Below are positions 3,900 to 63,347 of a stretch of 64,000 nucleotides of DNA, one piece after another. Position 1 is the stretch's first letter. Each line of letters begins with the position of its first letter. This DNA is from a bacterium (lineage in GTDB: Bacteria; Patescibacteriota; Microgenomatia; UBA10105; UBA927): positions 26,446-90,445 of the forward strand of contig JAKAFY010000001.1 in NCBI GenBank assembly GCA_021817785.1, read 5' to 3'. The position numbers were made by a program, and so were the translations under genes. The notes below the pieces were generated by a model, which was given only the letters and a program-made list of their open reading frames with translations, was not told the DNA's origin and ran no database searches.

Positions 3900-4514
3900 T
3901 TAATAGGTAATAATTTTTATCCGTGCGTTGTCTATGTACGCCTCTGCCCGTATGGTGGACTGCGCCATCACGATATACCGCTTATTACCGGGATCCAATG
4001 TTATCACGGCGCTCTGATGGCTGGAGGTATTGGATTCTGTTTGCAGCTGGCTCCCCCATACGTCATGTCCGTCGGTTGCATTAAATAACTTTACGTGCAT
4101 CCACCCAATACCCACAGGAATCCTAAGATAGGATTCAAACGTTACCTGTTTGATTTTGGGATACAGCGACGTATCGATCGTCGCTTCCGCTCCGGGTATT
4201 GCTTCCCATTGGTCATTTTTGGTGGTACCGCTCCCCAACGGGACATAATATTCCTTCGGCGACGTATCGGCCTGCACCGGTGCGACGGACGGCGTCACGG
4301 CAGCAGCCGGATGATCCGTGAGTTTTGCGGTGATCAGACCGGCCATAACCGGCGTGCATGCCGCGGGGCATGCCGAGGGTGCCTCCACCGATATCGGAAC
4401 TGCCGGAGCAGTGTCGGACGCTTTCCCAAAAACGACGATATCGAGAAATACCGTGTTCGTCACGACAAACAACAGCGCTGTCGCTATAAGCAATGTGTTA
4501 AATCGACCGTCCAT
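3900..4514 (-). CDS. hypothetical membrane-anchored/secreted protein
   Basis: 204 aa with an N-terminal hydrophobic helix (LLIATALLFVVTNTVFL), then Ala/Pro/Thr-rich linker and a beta-rich C-terminal domain. No recognizable family. Embedded in the glycosylation operon. Confidence 0.5.
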   Translation of the reverse strand: MDGRFNTLLIATALLFVVTNTVFLDIVVFGKASDTAPAVPISVEAPSACPAACTPVMAGLITAKLTDHPAAAVTPSVAPVQADTSPKEYYVPLGSGTTKNDQWEAIPGAEATIDTSLYPKIKQVTFESYLRIPVGIGWMHVKLFNATDGHDVWGSQLQTESNTSSHQSAVITLDPGNKRYIVMAQSTIRAEAYIDNARIKIITY

Positions 4515-57980: not shown

Positions 57981-58349
57981 TTATTTATTCAGAATAGCAG
58001 AGAAAATCAAAACCAGCTCATGCACTTCTTTCCATAGTAGCCGACACGTCTCTACGCCCTGCGGTACCGCTTTAGATATCATGCGTAGCCAGTGCATCGT
58101 TTCTTTACTTTCCTTCTTGCACAACGCTATCTTAAATCGAAAATCCTTTTTAGAATCAGCGGCATCAGCTTCCATGTAGTTTGCCCCAATACTTGTCGCT
58201 GACCGGACAAGTTGGTTGATGAGCGGAGAATTTATTGGCGAAGCCGGGACAGTGCTGGCAAATTCGATAACGCGCTCGCCGAATACGGCCGTTCGTTCCT
58301 GTAAATCATACTTTTTTGAGGGCTTTGAACTTTGAGCTTGATTTGTCAT
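57981..58349 (-). CDS. four-helix-bundle protein (23S rRNA intervening-sequence protein family, TIGR02436-like)
   Basis: Start MTNQAQSSKPSKKYDLQERTAVFGERVIEFASTVP...SIGANYMEADAADSKKDFRFKIALCKKESKETMHWLRMI. Confidence 0.7.
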   Translation of the reverse strand: MTNQAQSSKPSKKYDLQERTAVFGERVIEFASTVPASPINSPLINQLVRSATSIGANYMEADAADSKKDFRFKIALCKKESKETMHWLRMISKAVPQGVETCRLLWKEVHELVLIFSAILNK

Positions 58350-58372
58350 TTGAGCGTTGACCTTTGAGCGTA

Positions 58373-58975
58373 TTATAATCCGAGTTCTTCGTGATGGTCC
58401 TGCATGGTCTTCAGCGTGAGGGCAATAAAATCTGCAAGCGGAATGTGCAGCTTTTCTTCGCATTGGGCGATCTGTTCACGTTCTACCGCAGCGGCAAATG
58501 CCTTTTGTTTCCATTTCTTTAACACTGCCTCTACGGTCACCTGTTGTAATCGACTCTTTCCTTGCCCCTCCGAAGCTTCATGCGAAGGGAGGTCGGGACG
58601 AACAAGCGCAACAGCGACGATAAAGCCAGTCAATTCATCGACAGTCTCCAACGCCCATTCCATATCTCCTTCGAGCTCTGCCAGATGCGTGAGTTTTCGG
58701 TTATGCGACATCATGGCATGAACAATAGGCCCATCTGTTTCCCCCGTATCATTAAGCCACGCAAGCGTGTGCTTGGTGTGCATATCCGGCGTGTCTTTGG
58801 TTTCTTCCCAGTCTGCGTCGTGGAGAAGCCCCAATGTCTCCCACATATCGGGGTTTCCCCCCAGCTTTTCTGCCAGCGCCCGCATGGCAAATCCTACCGC
58901 ATACATGTGCCGGCGGAGATTCTGGTTTTGGGTGTGTGCGTGGAGCAAATCGAGTGCCTGATTCTTCGTGATCAT
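58373..58975 (-). CDS. HD-domain phosphohydrolase (YqeK/HDIG-like)
   Basis: Start MITKNQALDLLHAHTQNQNLRRHMYAVGFAMRALAEKLGG...LGLLHDADWE (H...HD...D). Confidence 0.65.
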   Translation of the reverse strand: MITKNQALDLLHAHTQNQNLRRHMYAVGFAMRALAEKLGGNPDMWETLGLLHDADWEETKDTPDMHTKHTLAWLNDTGETDGPIVHAMMSHNRKLTHLAELEGDMEWALETVDELTGFIVAVALVRPDLPSHEASEGQGKSRLQQVTVEAVLKKWKQKAFAAAVEREQIAQCEEKLHIPLADFIALTLKTMQDHHEELGL

Positions 58976-58979
58976 GGAT

Positions 58980-60914
58980 TTATTTAAAAAGTGAAAATTT
59001 CTTGGTAAACTCACGAAGCTCGTCTGTTTTTCCAAACAGACAGATACCGAAATAATCAAGTTCAGCCTCCGGTGTTTCACCGGTTTTGCGGACCTGATCC
59101 GCCGATGTACCGACGGTCATCGTACTCGTAAAGTCGGTGAATATAATACCGCGTTTTTTTGCTTCTTCACGCACTGATCTGATTTGTTTTGCGTTATCTG
59201 CTTTCAATACGATAAACGGGAAGTGGGAAATATTTGGATGCACTCCCCCCTCTTTATCTTTATATTGCAAAAAGCACATATCTTTGGCTTTCTCAAATCC
59301 TCCGGCCAAACCGGCCGTCATGTGACCCAGGGCATTCATCAATCTGCCCGCTTCGACATCGTCTCGCAGAATTGCGATAAACCGCATACTCTTTTCATCC
59401 GGCAACGAAGTGGCCTTGACTGCTACCGGAGCTACGTCAACACCTGTCATTTTCTCCGGTCTAAGTGTGGGAAATGGGATCACTTCTTTAATCGATCGTG
59501 CGTCGGTAAGAAGCATCACGAACCGGTCGATACCTATGGCTATCCCGCACGTCGGAGGAAATCCGTGTTCGATCGCGGTGAGATAATCGTAGTCCGTCTG
59601 ATGCGCTTCATCGAAGCCTGCTTTTTCCCGTTCTTTTTCGTCGATAAACCGTTTGCGTAAATCTATCGGGTCGTTCAACTCCGTATAGTTGTTGCCGAGT
59701 TCGGAGCCAAACGCAAACATTTCGAACCGTTGGGTAAACCGCGGGTCCGCACATTTTTTGGCCAATGGCGAAATTTCTATCGGATAGTCATAGATAATCG
59801 TCGGCTGGATAAGTTTTTCCTCCACTGCTTCTTCAAACAGGAATGCGATACATTCTCCGATATGCTGCATTTTTTTCAATTCCGCGAATTTATGTTCGGC
59901 TATGCCTTCTACTTTTTGTATTGCGGCTTTCGCCTCGGCCAGCGTCTTCCACGATAGTGCATCGACCCCGGTAAATTCTTTGATGGCTTCCACGACTTTG
60001 TACCTGCTCCAGGGGCGTTTTACGTTCATCTCCACACCCTGATACATAAATTTCGTGGTTCCCAATACTTTGAGCGCTGTGTACTCAAAAATTTCTTCGA
60101 TGATATCCATGCCATAGGAATAATCCTCATACGCAATTTGCGCTTCAAACATCGTAAATTCCGGATTATGATCATGATCCACTCCTTCATTCCGGAATAC
60201 TTTTGTGATTTCAAACACTTTATCAAATCCACCGACGATCATCCGTTTCAAATACATTTCATCGGAAATCCTAAGATAAAAATTTGCATCGAGTTCGTTG
60301 TGGTGGGTAGAAAACGGCCTGGCAAATCCGCCGCCATAGACCGGCTGCAATGTCGGGGTTTCCACTTCCAGAAATCCGCGGTCCGTCAGAAAATCCCGCA
60401 CGCTATCTATAATCTTGCTTCGCAGTTGCAACCGATGTTTTACGTCTTCATTGAGTATCGTATCCAGATACCGTTTGCGGTACCGTTCCTCTACATCCTT
60501 CAATCCATGCCATTGATCAGGAAGAGGCAAAAGTGTTTTCGTAAGCAGCTGGAAGTCACTCGCAAAGACAGACACTTCACCCGCCTGCGTTTTGCCAATC
60601 ATGCCCTGCACGGCAATAAAATCAGCAATATCGAGAAGCGGAATAAGGGAAAATGCGGCGGCAGTACACGAGTCGGCTTTGAGCACCACCTGAATGTGCC
60701 CTGATTCGTCCTGCATGTCGACGAAATAGATTTTTCCGTGTCCGCGCATACCGACGATACGTCCGGTGATCGCCACTTCTTTTGCATCCATCTCACGAGC
60801 TTGTCCGATGGTTTGGTCGCGGCGCACGCTAGAGGGATATGGGTCTATCCCCTGCTTTTTTAACGCTTCAAGCTTTTCCAACCGAGCCTTTTTCAGATCA
60901 TCTATGGTTGCCAT
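58980..60914 (-). CDS. lysS: lysyl-tRNA synthetase (class II) with ~150-aa C-terminal DUF2000-like extension
   Basis: Start MATIDDLKKARLEKLE. OB anticodon-binding domain plus class II motifs through GIAIGIDRFVMLLTDARSIKEVIPFPTLRP. An extra domain follows: KSMRFIAILRDDVEAGRLMNALGHMTAGLAGG...FPFIVLKADNAKQIR... Confidence 0.85.
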   Translation of the reverse strand: MATIDDLKKARLEKLEALKKQGIDPYPSSVRRDQTIGQAREMDAKEVAITGRIVGMRGHGKIYFVDMQDESGHIQVVLKADSCTAAAFSLIPLLDIADFIAVQGMIGKTQAGEVSVFASDFQLLTKTLLPLPDQWHGLKDVEERYRKRYLDTILNEDVKHRLQLRSKIIDSVRDFLTDRGFLEVETPTLQPVYGGGFARPFSTHHNELDANFYLRISDEMYLKRMIVGGFDKVFEITKVFRNEGVDHDHNPEFTMFEAQIAYEDYSYGMDIIEEIFEYTALKVLGTTKFMYQGVEMNVKRPWSRYKVVEAIKEFTGVDALSWKTLAEAKAAIQKVEGIAEHKFAELKKMQHIGECIAFLFEEAVEEKLIQPTIIYDYPIEISPLAKKCADPRFTQRFEMFAFGSELGNNYTELNDPIDLRKRFIDEKEREKAGFDEAHQTDYDYLTAIEHGFPPTCGIAIGIDRFVMLLTDARSIKEVIPFPTLRPEKMTGVDVAPVAVKATSLPDEKSMRFIAILRDDVEAGRLMNALGHMTAGLAGGFEKAKDMCFLQYKDKEGGVHPNISHFPFIVLKADNAKQIRSVREEAKKRGIIFTDFTSTMTVGTSADQVRKTGETPEAELDYFGICLFGKTDELREFTKKFSLFK

Positions 60915-60961
60915 ATATGTATTATATACATCCACCTTCGCCAAGGCTACGGTGGACACAG

Positions 60962-60992
60962 AAAACCCCGCTCGTCGGCGGGGTTATTTTTT
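60962..60992. terminator. bidirectional rho-independent terminator (greA 3' end)
   Basis: AACCCCGC-TCGTCG-GCGGGGTT hairpin with T6 on the plus strand and U4C on the minus strand. Confidence 0.55.
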
Positions 60993-61695: not shown

Positions 61696-61947
61696 ATGTT
61701 CTTTGTTTATATACTTAAATCGATTAAGTCAGGAACTTATTACATAGGATGCACAAACGATATCGAGAGAAGATTAAAAGAGCATAATTCAGGTATTAGC
61801 ATCTACACAAAAACCGATAAACCATGGAAATTATGTTACAATGAAGCGTTCAATTCGTTATCGGAAGCAAGAAAAAGAGAAAATCAAATTAAATCGTGGA
61901 AAAAACGTAAAGCGATTGAGAAATTAATACAGGCCCCCATCGTCTAG
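61696..61947 (+). CDS. GIY-YIG nuclease-family small protein (UPF0213-like)
   Basis: MFFVYILKSIKSGTYYIGCTNDIERRLKEHNSG. AT-rich. The last 5 codons overlap the tRNA-Glu 5' end. Confidence 0.6.
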   Translation: MFFVYILKSIKSGTYYIGCTNDIERRLKEHNSGISIYTKTDKPWKLCYNEAFNSLSEARKRENQIKSWKKRKAIEKLIQAPIV

Positions 61948-62006
61948 CGGCCTAGGACGGTTCCTTCTCAAGGAACAAATCGTCGGTCCGAATCCGACTG
62001 GGGGTA
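61933..62006 (+). tRNA. tRNA-Glu (anticodon CUC)
   Basis: Hand-folded cloverleaf: acceptor GCCCCCA/TGGGGGT, D-stem GTCT/GGAC, anticodon stem GTTCC/GGAAC with loop TTCTCAA (anticodon CTC), T-stem GTCGG/CCGAC with loop TCCGAAT, discriminator A. Confidence 0.8.
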
Positions 62007-62014
62007 CATACAAT

Positions 62015-62708: not shown

Positions 62709-63347
62709 CTATACGTTTGAATCTTTATTGGATTCCAGAATATAATTTGCTAATTCTTTTCTACTCCATAACTCTACATTTAATTTATTTGATACGTATT
62801 CAGCATTTTTCGTAAAGCTGCTATTTGTTATGACAAGGGCATGGTCACAGTTAAACATCGCCTTTGCAGCAACTAGCTTTTCTACTGCCGTATTGTCTAC
62901 GTGCTCATGTTGTCGATAGCGTTTGGCTTGCACCGCAGTTTTTTGTCCATCCTTAGTAATTATCAAATCTGCACCATACTCGTTACCCGGATGTGACTGA
63001 GAAAAATGATCAACGGAATATCCTAATCTCTGAAACAGAATCACCAAGTATTTCTCAAATTGCTCACCCGTCATTTTGTCAATCTCTGGTAGCCCGGCTC
63101 GAAAGATTTTTAGTTGTTCATATATCTGATAAACAAAACCAATGATTACAAGCTCTGCAAGAAGAACTAGGAGGGCCCAGACCCATGCGGGAACAAACAC
63201 ATCGACATTTGGGATATATGCACCAGTTGTTGTAATACCGTGGTTCTTGGTAATAACAAGGAACCCGATATACCCGGCTAAAAGAGCTCCAAATTGATAC
63301 AATAAATTCTCTAACGAATATTTCGATCTACGCCTATAACTCATCAA
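62709..63347 (-). CDS. membrane-anchored Mrr_cat-type restriction endonuclease-like protein
   Basis: Two N-terminal TM helices, then GEQFEKYLVILFQRLGYSVDHFSQSHPGNEYGADLIITKDGQKTAVQAKRYRQHEHV (PD-(D/E)xK Mrr catalytic core). Confidence 0.65.
   Translation of the reverse strand: MMSYRRRSKYSLENLLYQFGALLAGYIGFLVITKNHGITTTGAYIPNVDVFVPAWVWALLVLLAELVIIGFVYQIYEQLKIFRAGLPEIDKMTGEQFEKYLVILFQRLGYSVDHFSQSHPGNEYGADLIITKDGQKTAVQAKRYRQHEHVDNTAVEKLVAAKAMFNCDHALVITNSSFTKNAEYVSNKLNVELWSRKELANYILESNKDSNV

What the first reader, a model, noticed from the sequence alone, without database searches (positions are those of the whole stretch)
58980..59440. LysRS fused to a C-terminal DUF2000-like domain
After the class II core, which ends near ...EVIPFPTLRP, the protein continues for ~150 aa. 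The extension begins SMRFIAILRDDVEAGRLMNALGHMTAGLAGG, matching the start of DUF2000 (a small, usually standalone domain with a PTH2-like fold). A tRNA- or aminoacyl-ester-binding fold fused to LysRS could act as a deacylase or editing factor, or as a tRNA-handoff module.
Basis: partly seen in the sequence, partly recalled or inferred. Interest (0 to 1): 0.5.

Follow-up and report, generated by a model that had tools for sequence, protein, structure and literature searches.

The report
LysRS with tethered PTH2-like hydrolase domain
A lysyl-tRNA synthetase from a tiny-genome (Patescibacteria) bacterium carries an extra C-terminal DUF2000 domain with the fold of a peptidyl-tRNA hydrolase, and since this link recurs in other lineages the domain probably hydrolyses wrongly acylated or blocked tRNA-Lys, a step ordinary LysRS lacks.

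Summary

The fusion is real and recurrent:
- It is in frame in 7 of 80 species-level genomes carrying this DUF2000 subfamily, and lysS is the adjacent separate gene in 2 more.
- It occurs in Gottesman-, Peri-/Peregrini- and Dojkabacteria.
- At least two unrelated DUF2000 lineages are involved.

Close relatives of this LysRS carry other C-terminal modules in mixed combinations: a PheRS-type B3/4 domain, and an HD hydrolase. In this window the HD hydrolase is the next gene, 4 nt downstream. On Legionella plasmids, free DUF2000 sits in a cassette with the tRNA-editing genes YbaK and AlaX.

Best reading (about 0.5): a tethered tRNA-ester hydrolase that clears mis-acylated or N-blocked tRNA-Lys. 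Catalysis and substrate are inferred, not shown. No paper in the library mentions DUF2000. I rate it a new variant of a known kind, of moderate to high interest.

The parts
58980..60914 (-). lysS-DUF2000 fusion gene. ATG at 60914, TAA stop at 58982-58980, 644 aa. The mechanical ORF extends to GTG 60959 (659 aa), and residue numbers below use that ORF numbering.
60543..60776 (-). OB-fold anticodon-binding domain of LysRS (ORF residues 62-139)
   Evidence: PF01336, E 3.4e-14
59463..60494 (-). Class II catalytic core (ORF residues 156-499). Motif 2 ...VFRNEG... and motif 3 ...GIGIDRFVMLL... are intact.
   Evidence: PF00152, E 5.9e-86. TIGR00499 above cut-off; alignment to 1BBU, 3A74 and 9JKL.
59406..59450 (-). 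Linker MTGVDVAPVAVKATS (ORF residues 504-518). It has no homologue in canonical LysRS or in free DUF2000 proteins and is predicted disordered.
   Evidence: sequence. (E. coli LysS ends at residue 503). (free proteins begin at ..LPDE..). (pLDDT <50 over residues 482-504 of the 644-aa model). In other fusions the linker differs in length and is low-complexity.
58983..59405 (-). Complete DUF2000 domain (ORF residues 519-659; Pfam match 525-659) with a PTH2-like alpha/beta fold. The family's near-invariant residues are present: N542, H546, Y566, D568, S578, F610, M614, G643, T652, S656.
58373..58975 (-). HD-domain (HDIG-type) phosphohydrolase gene. It starts 4 nt after the lysS-DUF2000 stop (TAA ATCC ATG) with no terminator between. 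The same protein is fused to the LysRS C-terminus in 29 of the 120 closest LysRS, and to LysRS-DUF2000 in P0019.
60964..60985 (-). Terminator-like hairpin after greA. It marks the upstream boundary of the lysS transcription unit.

Best explanation
The gene encodes a working class II lysyl-tRNA synthetase from a Gottesmanbacteria-type (Patescibacteria) genome. A complete, formerly free-standing DUF2000 protein has been joined to its C-terminus through a short flexible linker. DUF2000 is a divergent relative of the PTH2 peptidyl-tRNA hydrolase fold.

Most likely it is a hydrolase for the ester bond at the 3' end of tRNA, and LysRS concentrates it on tRNA-Lys. While the anticodon stays held by the OB domain of the dimeric synthetase, the tethered domain can reach the acceptor end. 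There it would remove an acyl group that should not be present. That group could be a non-cognate amino acid that LysRS has transferred (post-transfer editing, which canonical LysRS lacks). It could instead be an N-blocked or peptidyl-lysyl group (PTH-like recycling). Either way the tRNA can be recharged at once. The HD phosphohydrolase encoded 4 nt downstream, and fused in relatives, belongs to the same LysRS-centred clean-up module.

Shown here: the fusion, the fold, the recurrence and the gene associations.
Inferred: catalytic activity, substrate and action in cis.
Rough split within this explanation: editing of mis-acylated tRNA-Lys about 0.3, N-blocked or peptidyl-tRNA-Lys about 0.2.

For: Selection on a site. 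N19, H23, D45, M91, G120 and T129 (domain numbering) are kept in nearly all free and all fused copies.

Recurrent linkage to LysRS. LysRS is the commonest fusion partner among 458 family representatives, with 5 separate 50%-identity clusters. Of 80 GTDB loci, 7 are fused in frame and 2 have lysS as the adjacent separate gene; no other neighbour recurs. In Peribacteria the fused LysRS cores are only 35-38% identical to this one. A second group of fused DUF2000 domains (P0119 type) is only 27-34% identical to this domain, and its nearest free relatives are archaeal.

Company it keeps. A PheRS-beta B3/4 (editing-domain) homologue is found in the same LysRS tails, as LysRS-B3/4-DUF2000 in 6 proteins. 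The Legionella plasmid cassette DUF2000-YbaK/EbsC (PF04073, E 7.5e-24)-AlaX-like (PF07973) occurs in 18 records. In a Woesearchaeota genome, DUF2000 lies directly after ribosomal protein S7.

The need. [quoted passage not shown] LysRS errors are known substrates of free-standing ProXp-ST editing factors (PMC7373986). Pth deficiency in E. coli is limited by Lys-tRNA-Lys (title of Heurgue-Hamard 1996, seen in the reference list of PMC9973355).
Against: - No activity has ever been shown for any DUF2000 protein; no paper in the library mentions the family.
- The domain fails the PTH2 Pfam threshold (12.2 bits against 23).
- The PTH2 catalytic Asp86/Thr90 region could not be mapped with confidence.
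- The solved member 2GAX lacks the family's conserved His.
- The full-length model is too poor (pTM 0.49) to show that the domain reaches the LysRS active site.
- Most copies of this DUF2000 subfamily (71 of 80 loci) are free-standing with unrelated neighbours. Some family members are fused to non-tRNA enzymes: a fatty-acid desaturase, a Cys/Met PLP enzyme and an aldehyde dehydrogenase fragment. The family's activity therefore need not be tRNA-directed.
- Architectures are scattered on the LysRS tree and close relatives (89% identical core) lack the domain, so it is dispensable.
- The Legionella cassette is one mobile element and counts as one event.
Confidence: 0.5

Rival explanations
1. Small-molecule clean-up or sensing domain. 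DUF2000 would hydrolyse or bind a low-molecular-weight aminoacyl compound made by LysRS, not tRNA. Candidates are the homocysteine thiolactone, homoserine lactone or ornithine lactam released by pre-transfer editing, or lysyl-adenylate or Ap4A-type products.
For: - The PTH2 fold is a carboxylic-ester hydrolase fold.
- Class II LysRS makes these cyclic by-products and Ap4A (PMC7373986; PMC5370406).
- DUF2000 is fused to a Cys/Met-metabolism PLP enzyme (P0353) and to other metabolic enzymes.
- Free copies sit next to an M20 amidohydrolase, a LysE-family amino-acid exporter, an EamA exporter and a glyoxalase-like gene.
- The partner HD hydrolase is weakly nearest to YqeK-type Ap4A hydrolases and uncharacterised HD hydrolases, which fits a by-product disposal theme.
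Against: - The strongest non-LysRS association is with two tRNA-deacylase genes, YbaK and AlaX.
- The domain shares LysRS tails with a B3/4 tRNA-editing-type domain.
- The metabolic fusions are single clusters each, against 5 or more LysRS clusters.
- A diffusible by-product would not obviously need a covalent tether.
Confidence: 0.2
2. Non-catalytic tRNA-binding or hand-off appendage. The PTH2-like fold would only grip the acceptor arm, raising the affinity of LysRS for tRNA-Lys or protecting and channelling Lys-tRNA-Lys. This would resemble the general tRNA-binding extensions of other synthetases.
For: - Appended tRNA-binding domains are common in synthetases (general knowledge).
- The window's domain is mildly basic (pI 8.6, against 5.3 for the core).
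- The solved family member 2GAX lacks the conserved His, so catalysis is not guaranteed across the family.
- The PTH2 catalytic Asp could not be mapped.
Against: - Near-invariant polar residues (N19, H23, D45, S55, T129) are kept across free and fused copies down to about 30% identity, which looks like an active or ligand site, not a generic RNA surface.
- Free copies have a median pI of about 7.
- An independent, highly conserved 140-aa free-standing form spread across phyla argues for a self-contained activity.
Confidence: 0.15
3. Functionally meaningless fusion. In compact Patescibacteria genomes, neighbouring genes with tiny spacers are easily joined by loss of a stop codon, and the two halves would work independently.
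For: - Fused and split forms coexist: L025 and L062 have lysS then a stop then DUF2000.
- The neighbouring HD gene is likewise fused or split among close relatives.
- Architectures are interleaved on the LysRS tree.
- The linker looks like a read-through spacer.
Against: - DUF2000 first has to land next to lysS. That happened in 9 of 80 loci, in lineages whose LysRS are only 35-50% identical, and with two unrelated DUF2000 lineages. No other neighbour recurs.
- All fused copies keep the family's conserved residues.
Confidence: 0.05

Closest known systems
PTH2 (archaeal/eukaryotic peptidyl-tRNA hydrolase 2; PF01981; e.g. 1XTY, 1WN2, 1Q7S)
   Different: Below the Pfam threshold for PF01981. It has its own conserved set (N19, Y43, D45, S55, F87, M91, T129, K131-F-S-L) and an inserted beta-hairpin (domain residues 41-54) that PTH2 lacks. 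No equivalent of PTH2 Asp86/Thr90 could be fixed. No activity is known.
DUF2000 / Atu0240 (PDB 2GAX), free-standing proteins of about 140 aa
   Different: Here it is covalently joined to LysRS. The group of fused copies that includes the window has R532 and (all but two of them) D534, where free copies usually have N and K. 2GAX itself is a divergent member: 16-19% identical, with Phe in place of the conserved His.
Cis and trans tRNA-editing modules (ProRS INS with YbaK/ProXp; AlaRS editing domain with AlaX; PheRS-beta B3/4)
   Same: Same evolutionary pattern: one hydrolase-type module occurs both free-standing and fused to a synthetase. DUF2000 is co-operonic with YbaK and AlaX homologues on Legionella plasmids and shares LysRS tails with a B3/4 homologue. 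LysRS errors are already known to be cleared by free ProXp-ST factors (PMC7373986).
   Different: The fold differs from every described editing domain (my knowledge of the field, not tested here). LysRS is not known to have any cis post-transfer editing domain (PMC5370406). Deacylase activity is untested.
LysX (MprF-LysRS fusion of mycobacteria; NF002821)
   Same: Another natural LysRS fusion in which the added module is thought to use the product Lys-tRNA-Lys directly. The window's core aligns to the LysRS part of the LysX model.
   Different: In LysX the partner is an N-terminal membrane lysyl-phosphatidylglycerol synthase. Here it is a C-terminal soluble PTH2-like domain, and the window scores below the LysX cut-off (486 against 742 bits).
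YqeK-type HD Ap4A hydrolases and YpgQ-like HD hydrolases (comparison for the downstream HD partner only)
   Same: The H...HD...H metal-site motif is intact. The best profile hits in the PDB are 3DJB, 3DTO and 3B57 (uncharacterised HD hydrolases) and 2OGI, 8JJA, 2O08 and 8WMY (symmetrical bis(5'-nucleosyl)-tetraphosphatases).
   Different: E-values are marginal (2e-4 to 1e-2) and cover mainly the motif region. There is no NCBIfam YqeK hit. Substrate unknown.

Membership tests
Class II lysyl-tRNA synthetase (lysS_bact, TIGR00499) | Equivalog HMM score above the curated cut-off over the full model | tested here: met
   538.8 bits against a cut-off of 427.6, model positions 4-496 of 496
Class II lysyl-tRNA synthetase (lysS_bact, TIGR00499) | N-terminal OB anticodon-binding domain plus class II core with motifs 2 and 3 and the lysine-binding Glu (E. 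coli E240, E278, E428) | tested here: met
   PF01336 and PF00152. FRNEG and GIGIDR are read in the sequence. E240, E278 and E428 equivalents are conserved, but Y280 is Gln and F426 is Tyr.
Class II lysyl-tRNA synthetase (lysS_bact, TIGR00499) | Lysylation of tRNA-Lys | not testable with these tools
   Needs an enzyme assay
DUF2000 (PF09391) | Full-length match above the Pfam gathering score | tested here: met
   121.4 bits against 25; model positions 1-133 of 133
DUF2000 (PF09391) | Fold of the solved member Atu0240 (2GAX) | tested here: met
DUF2000 (PF09391) | Family-wide near-invariant residues (N19, H23, Y43, S55, L62, F87, M91, G120, T129, S133) | tested here: met
   All are present in the window's domain
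PTH2 peptidyl-tRNA hydrolase (PF01981) | Match to the family HMM above the gathering score | tested here: not met
   12.2 bits, E 0.22, against a cut-off of 23. Only sub-threshold hits in 21 of 66 DUF2000 proteins.
PTH2 peptidyl-tRNA hydrolase (PF01981) | PTH2 fold | tested here: met
PTH2 peptidyl-tRNA hydrolase (PF01981) | Residues invariant in the five aligned PTH2 structures. K18 and D86 of the S. solfataricus enzyme were reported as critical (my recollection of Fromant et al. 2005, not verified here). | tested here: inconclusive
   hhalign pairs R9, D11, G17, K18 and H25 with R532, D534, G538, R539 and H546. The D86/T90 region aligns across a 5-residue insertion and is unreliable.
PTH2 peptidyl-tRNA hydrolase (PF01981) | Hydrolysis of N-acyl-aminoacyl-tRNA | not testable with these tools
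   Needs an enzyme assay or pth(ts) complementation
Synthetase-linked tRNA-editing (deacylase) modules, as a functional class | Occurs both fused to a synthetase and as a free-standing homologue | tested here: met
   7 fused, 2 adjacent and 71 free among 80 loci; 5 fused clusters among the representatives
Synthetase-linked tRNA-editing (deacylase) modules, as a functional class | Homology to a fold with demonstrated aminoacyl-tRNA deacylase activity (CP1, INS/YbaK, AlaX/N2, B3/4, DTD) | tested here: not met
   The only structural relatives are 2GAX and PTH2. PTH2 acts on N-blocked aminoacyl-tRNA.
Synthetase-linked tRNA-editing (deacylase) modules, as a functional class | Genomic association with known editing factors | tested here: met
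   DUF2000-YbaK-AlaX cassette. B3/4 in the same polypeptide. The cassette counts as one evolutionary event.
Synthetase-linked tRNA-editing (deacylase) modules, as a functional class | Deacylation of mis-acylated tRNA | not testable with these tools
   Needs an enzyme assay

The most novel reading that the evidence does not exclude
DUF2000 is an unrecognised family of PTH2-fold tRNA-ester hydrolases (aminoacyl- or N-acyl-aminoacyl-tRNA deacylases). Patescibacteria have recruited it at least twice as the first cis hydrolytic proofreading or recycling domain of a lysyl-tRNA synthetase. It would be one of three interchangeable modules (B3/4, DUF2000, HD) that turn the LysRS C-terminus into a quality-control hub. 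The highly conserved free-standing form spread across Patescibacteria, DPANN archaea, some Gammaproteobacteria and Legionella plasmids would be a new trans-editing or tRNA-recycling factor.
Probability: 0.35. Interest if true: 0.75.

Novelty: new variant of a known kind. Interest (0 to 1): 0.62.

Why it matters
Class II LysRS is a textbook case of a synthetase without a post-transfer editing site. It mischarges tRNA-Lys with several amino acids and cannot deacylate the products (PMC5370406). A natural LysRS with a tethered ester-hydrolase fold, and sister enzymes with a PheRS-type B3/4 domain, would show how that gap is closed in organisms with minimal genomes that live on scavenged amino acids.

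It also gives the first concrete, cheaply testable functional hypothesis for DUF2000. This family has had a crystal structure since 2006 and, in the library searched here, no literature at all. The hypothesis would extend the PTH2 fold from ribosome-drop-off recycling to synthetase-coupled quality control.

The high conservation of the free-standing form (62-85% identity across bacterial phyla and archaea), and its presence in a plasmid cassette with YbaK and AlaX, suggest a mobile translation-protection function. That may be relevant to amino-acid analogue or tRNA-targeting toxins.

Tried and rejected
1. Full-length AF2 model to see whether the domain docks on the LysRS active site. The model was poor (pLDDT 71, pTM 0.49, parts of the core <50), so it only supports a disordered linker.
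2. Foldseek against afdb50 was not available.
3. Literature searches for DUF2000, PF09391, Atu0240, LysRS-PTH2 fusion and Patescibacteria synthetase fusions found nothing relevant. Powers et al. 2005 on Pth2 is not held, so the PTH2 catalytic-residue statement rests on my memory.
4. An HMM of DUF2000 against PDB sequences reaches only 2GAX, not PTH2. The PTH2 link needed fold search and hhalign.
5. A search for conserved neighbours of the 71 free-standing copies found none apart from HD and lysS. Contexts in Mangrovibacter and Shewanella are uninformative.
6. There is no homologue in E. coli genomes or in phages.
7. No Pth1 (E. coli Pth query), YbaK or AlaX homologue occurs in the window or in the fetched loci other than the Legionella plasmid loci the YbaK and AlaX queries came from. 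A 64-kb window says nothing about the genome, so the idea that DUF2000 replaces Pth1 could not be tested.
8. LysRS active-site substitutions (Y280Q, F426Y) were considered as a sign of relaxed specificity tied to the add-on domains. This was rejected as a correlate because plain and extended LysRS of the clade share them.
9. Domain pI as a test for tRNA binding was not discriminating.
10. Counts of fused against free copies from the search for homologous proteins domain queries were discarded. Those searches never return the long fused proteins, not even the 100%-identical P0001.
11. P0397 looked like a free relative of the second fused group. It is a fusion truncated by a 100-N scaffold gap.
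12. HD identity: there is no PDB hit by single sequence and only marginal profile hits.
Full report
**1. What is in the sequence**

The minus-strand ORF 58980..60959 is a single open frame of 659 aa. Pfam finds three domains:
- an OB anticodon-binding domain (residues 62-139);
- the class II D/K/N catalytic core (156-499, E 5.9e-86);
- at the very end, DUF2000 (PF09391) covering model positions 1-133 of 133 (residues 525-659, E 3.2e-35).

NCBIfam's lysS equivalog scores 538.8 bits against a cut-off of 427.6. The DNA across the junction reads straight through...EVIPFPTLRPEK-MTGVDVAPVAVKATS-LPDEKSMRFIAIL.... E. coli LysS (1BBU) ends exactly opposite ...RPEK, so the extension starts where a canonical LysRS stops.

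The real start is almost certainly ATG 60914, giving 644 aa. The GTG at 60959 lies in the tail of a terminator-like hairpin after greA (60964-60985), and the identical database protein P0001 is 644 aa.

**2. The fusion is real, and its organism**

The closest LysRS proteins come from Candidatus Gottesmanbacteria and other Patescibacteria. P0001 (100% identical) and nine further proteins at 72-87% identity carry the same in-frame LysRS-DUF2000 arrangement in independent assemblies. One of them lies on a 1.2-Mb Gottesmanbacteria contig. Synteny is conserved there and in the window: greA, lysS-DUF2000, HD, ham1, serS.

**3. What the extension is**

The DUF2000 part is 68-77% identical to free-standing 142-148-aa proteins found all over Patescibacteria. 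The similarity begins at their N-terminal 'LPDE'. A whole gene has therefore been joined through a 15-residue spacer.

At sequence level:
- 21 of 66 diverse DUF2000 proteins give sub-threshold hits to PF01981 (PTH2), while every other family is hit by a single member.
- A profile-profile alignment with five solved PTH2 sequences is colinear over 112 columns (E 0.0017). It pairs PTH2-invariant R9, D11, G17, K18 and H25 with window R532, D534, G538, R539 and H546.
- The region of PTH2 Asp86/Thr90 aligns across an insertion and cannot be trusted.

DUF2000 has its own near-invariant set (N19, H23, Y43, S55, L62, F87, M91, G120, T129, S133 in domain numbering). All of these are present here and nearly all are present in every fused copy. 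The 'PTH2-like fold' is therefore tested and holds. Membership of the PTH2 family proper is not met.

**4. Distribution of the fusion**

I searched 1.84 billion 50%-identity representatives and found 458 DUF2000 proteins (E <= 1e-3). Among the best 150, LysRS is the commonest partner, with five separate clusters including a Dojkabacteria protein. The other fusions are single cases: a fatty-acid desaturase, a Cys/Met PLP enzyme, an aldehyde-dehydrogenase fragment, and tandem DUF2000 copies.

A scan of one genome per GTDB species returned 80 loci of this conserved subfamily (62-85% identity). They come from more than a dozen Patescibacteria lineages, two cultured Gammaproteobacteria, Bdellovibrionota and Woesearchaeota. 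Among these 80 loci:
- 7 are fused in frame to LysRS (Gottesmanbacteria, Peribacteria, Peregrinibacteria);
- 2 have lysS as the immediately preceding separate gene (Daviesbacteria and one other);
- 71 lie elsewhere, and no other neighbour recurs.

The Peribacteria LysRS cores are only 35-38% identical to this one, while their DUF2000 domains are 63-67% identical. Fused copies sit at several places among free ones on a rough DUF2000 tree.

A second set of fused domains (P0015, P0019, P0039, P0092, P0103, P0113, P0115, P0119) is only 27-34% identical to the window's domain. Its nearest free relatives are archaeal, at 52-55% identity. An apparent free member of that set is a fusion broken by a scaffold gap. 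At least two, and probably more, independent fusions are the simplest reading.

**5. The wider pattern: a modular LysRS tail**

Among the 120 closest LysRS proteins:

| Architecture | Count |
|---|---|
| Plain LysRS | 64 |
| LysRS-HD | 29 |
| LysRS-DUF2000 | 11 |
| LysRS-B3/4 (PF03483, the PheRS-beta editing-domain family) | 9 |
| LysRS-B3/4-DUF2000 | 6 |
| LysRS-DUF2000-HD (P0019) | 1 |

These architectures are interleaved on the LysRS tree. LysRS proteins with 87-89% identical cores differ in their tails.

The fused HD domain is the same protein that the window encodes as the next gene. The lysS stop TAA is followed by ATCC and then the ATG at 58975, with no terminator-like site between. The HD gene also follows DUF2000 in 7 of the 9 lysS-linked GTDB loci. 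Its H...HD...H motif is intact. The nearest solved relatives, at marginal E-values, are uncharacterised HD hydrolases and YqeK-type symmetrical Ap4A hydrolases.

**6. Independent associations of free DUF2000**

- On Legionella conjugative plasmids (18 records, essentially one cassette) the order is XRE regulator | DUF2000, YbaK/EbsC (PF04073, E 7.5e-24), AlaX-like (PF07973). So DUF2000 lies in line with two known families of aminoacyl-tRNA deacylases.
- In a Woesearchaeota genome, DUF2000 directly follows ribosomal protein S7.
- Other single contexts point to amino-acid handling: an M20 hydrolase, a LysE-family exporter and an EamA exporter.

**7. How it most likely works**

Established background:
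- E. coli class II LysRS removes homocysteine, homoserine and ornithine by cyclisation in its active site. [quoted passage not shown]
- Free-standing ProXp-ST factors clear Ser/Thr errors of LysRS, among other synthetases (PMC7373986).
- Loss of Pth in E. coli is limited by Lys-tRNA-Lys (title of Heurgue-Hamard et al. 1996, seen in the reference list of PMC9973355).

Against this background, several findings all fit a tethered tRNA-ester hydrolase acting on the acceptor end of tRNA-Lys: a domain with an ester-hydrolase fold and a conserved polar site, flexibly tethered to LysRS, recurrently and independently linked to it, sharing tails with a B3/4 editing-type domain, and elsewhere co-operonic with YbaK and AlaX. 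The removed group would be either a non-cognate amino acid (editing) or an N-blocked or peptidyl group (PTH-like recycling).

The steps shown here are the architecture, fold, conservation and associations. The inferred steps are catalysis, the substrate and action in cis. I put this at about 0.5 overall.

**8. Rivals**

- A small-molecule function, such as hydrolysis of the thiolactone, lactone or lactam by-products or of aminoacyl-adenylate or Ap4A-type products. It is supported by the Cys/Met-enzyme fusion, the exporter and amidohydrolase neighbours and the HD partner. About 0.2.
- A non-catalytic tRNA-binding appendage. About 0.15.
- A meaningless read-through fusion in a compact genome. 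About 0.05. The recurrence with unrelated LysRS and DUF2000 lineages weakens it.

The full-length model was too poor to show docking. The Pth1 content of the genome could not be examined.

**9. Novelty**

No paper in the 8-million-paper library contains 'DUF2000', 'PF09391' or 'Atu0240', and searches for LysRS fusions of this kind found nothing. The fused proteins are present in public databases, simply named 'lysine--tRNA ligase'.

A synthetase with an appended hydrolytic module is a known kind of thing. New here are a PTH2-fold module, its attachment to LysRS, and its place in a three-module interchangeable set. I therefore rate it a new variant of a known kind, with interest 0.62.

Noticed in passing
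window 58373-58975 (-); P0018, P0020, P0095 and others; P0019: The HD-domain gene 4 nt downstream of lysS-DUF2000 is fused to the LysRS C-terminus in 29 of the 120 closest LysRS proteins, and to LysRS-DUF2000 in one (P0019, 853 aa). Its best solved relatives, at marginal E-values, include YqeK-type Ap4A hydrolases. That is suggestive, because LysRS is a major Ap4A producer.
   Followed up: partly
P0006, P0039, P0092, P0103, P0113, P0115 (LysRS-B3/4-DUF2000); P0016, P0036, P0046 and others (LysRS-B3/4): Fifteen close LysRS relatives carry a PheRS-beta-type B3/4 domain (PF03483, COG3382-like) C-terminal to the core. An editing-type domain on a LysRS appears undescribed and deserves its own study.
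   Followed up: partly
L093 5977-7585 (Legionella pneumophila Paris plasmid pLPP); L096: A cassette of XRE regulator | DUF2000, YbaK/EbsC, AlaX-like lies amid GNAT acetyltransferases and phosphotransferases. It is present in 18 Legionella plasmid records at 90-100% nucleotide identity.
   Followed up: yes
L013-L092, e.g. L078 Mangrovibacter phragmitis, L086 Shewanella indica, L066 and L083 Woesearchaeota: One DUF2000 subfamily keeps 62-85% identity across many Patescibacteria lineages, cultured Gammaproteobacteria, Bdellovibrionota and DPANN archaea. This is far more conserved than the LysRS cores it is fused to (35-38% identical). It implies very strong constraint, recent horizontal spread, or both.
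   Followed up: partly
window ORF residues 274 and 425 (codons at 60140-60138 and 59687-59685): The lysine-pocket residues equivalent to E. coli LysS Y280 and F426 are Gln and Tyr here and in nearly the whole Gottesmanbacteria LysRS clade, plain and extended alike. From memory, these two positions govern discrimination against the analogue AEC in E. coli.
   Followed up: partly
window 60912-60930 (-): A perfect TATAAT (60926-60921) ends 7 nt before the A of the lysS ATG (60914), with no Shine-Dalgarno-like sequence between. The lysS mRNA may be leaderless. No -35 element was found by the scan.
   Followed up: no
window 57981-58463 (-): A 23S-rRNA-intervening-sequence-type four-helix-bundle gene (PF05635) sits between the HD gene and ham1. 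It is absent from the same position in the related loci L010 and L011, so it is a lineage-specific insertion.
   Followed up: no
L014, L062 (and other contigs titled 'uncultured Gammaproteobacteria'): MAG contigs labelled Gammaproteobacteria carry Patescibacteria-type lysS (77% and 49% identical to the window's core) and the lysS-DUF2000-HD arrangement. The taxonomic labels are probably wrong.
   Followed up: no
L098 about 4230-4340: A 100-N scaffold gap with duplicated flanks (NLKEIIAFPT on both sides) splits a LysRS-DUF2000 fusion. As a result the database holds a spurious 173-aa 'free' DUF2000 (P0397).
   Followed up: yes
(tool behaviour): the search for homologous proteins with a 136-141-aa domain query returns only short proteins. 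The 100%-identical fused proteins (P0001, P0119) are not listed, so its hit lists cannot be used to count fused against free copies.
   Followed up: yes
L099 136-1218 (Woesearchaeota): A free DUF2000 gene lies 58 nt after ribosomal protein S7 on the same strand, with eIF-1A nearby. This is a translation-gene context in an archaeon.
   Followed up: no
window 61933-62007 (+) and 62709-63347 (-): A tRNA-Glu(CUC) gene and an Mrr-type restriction endonuclease gene lie just upstream of greA. They are unrelated to the finding.
   Followed up: no
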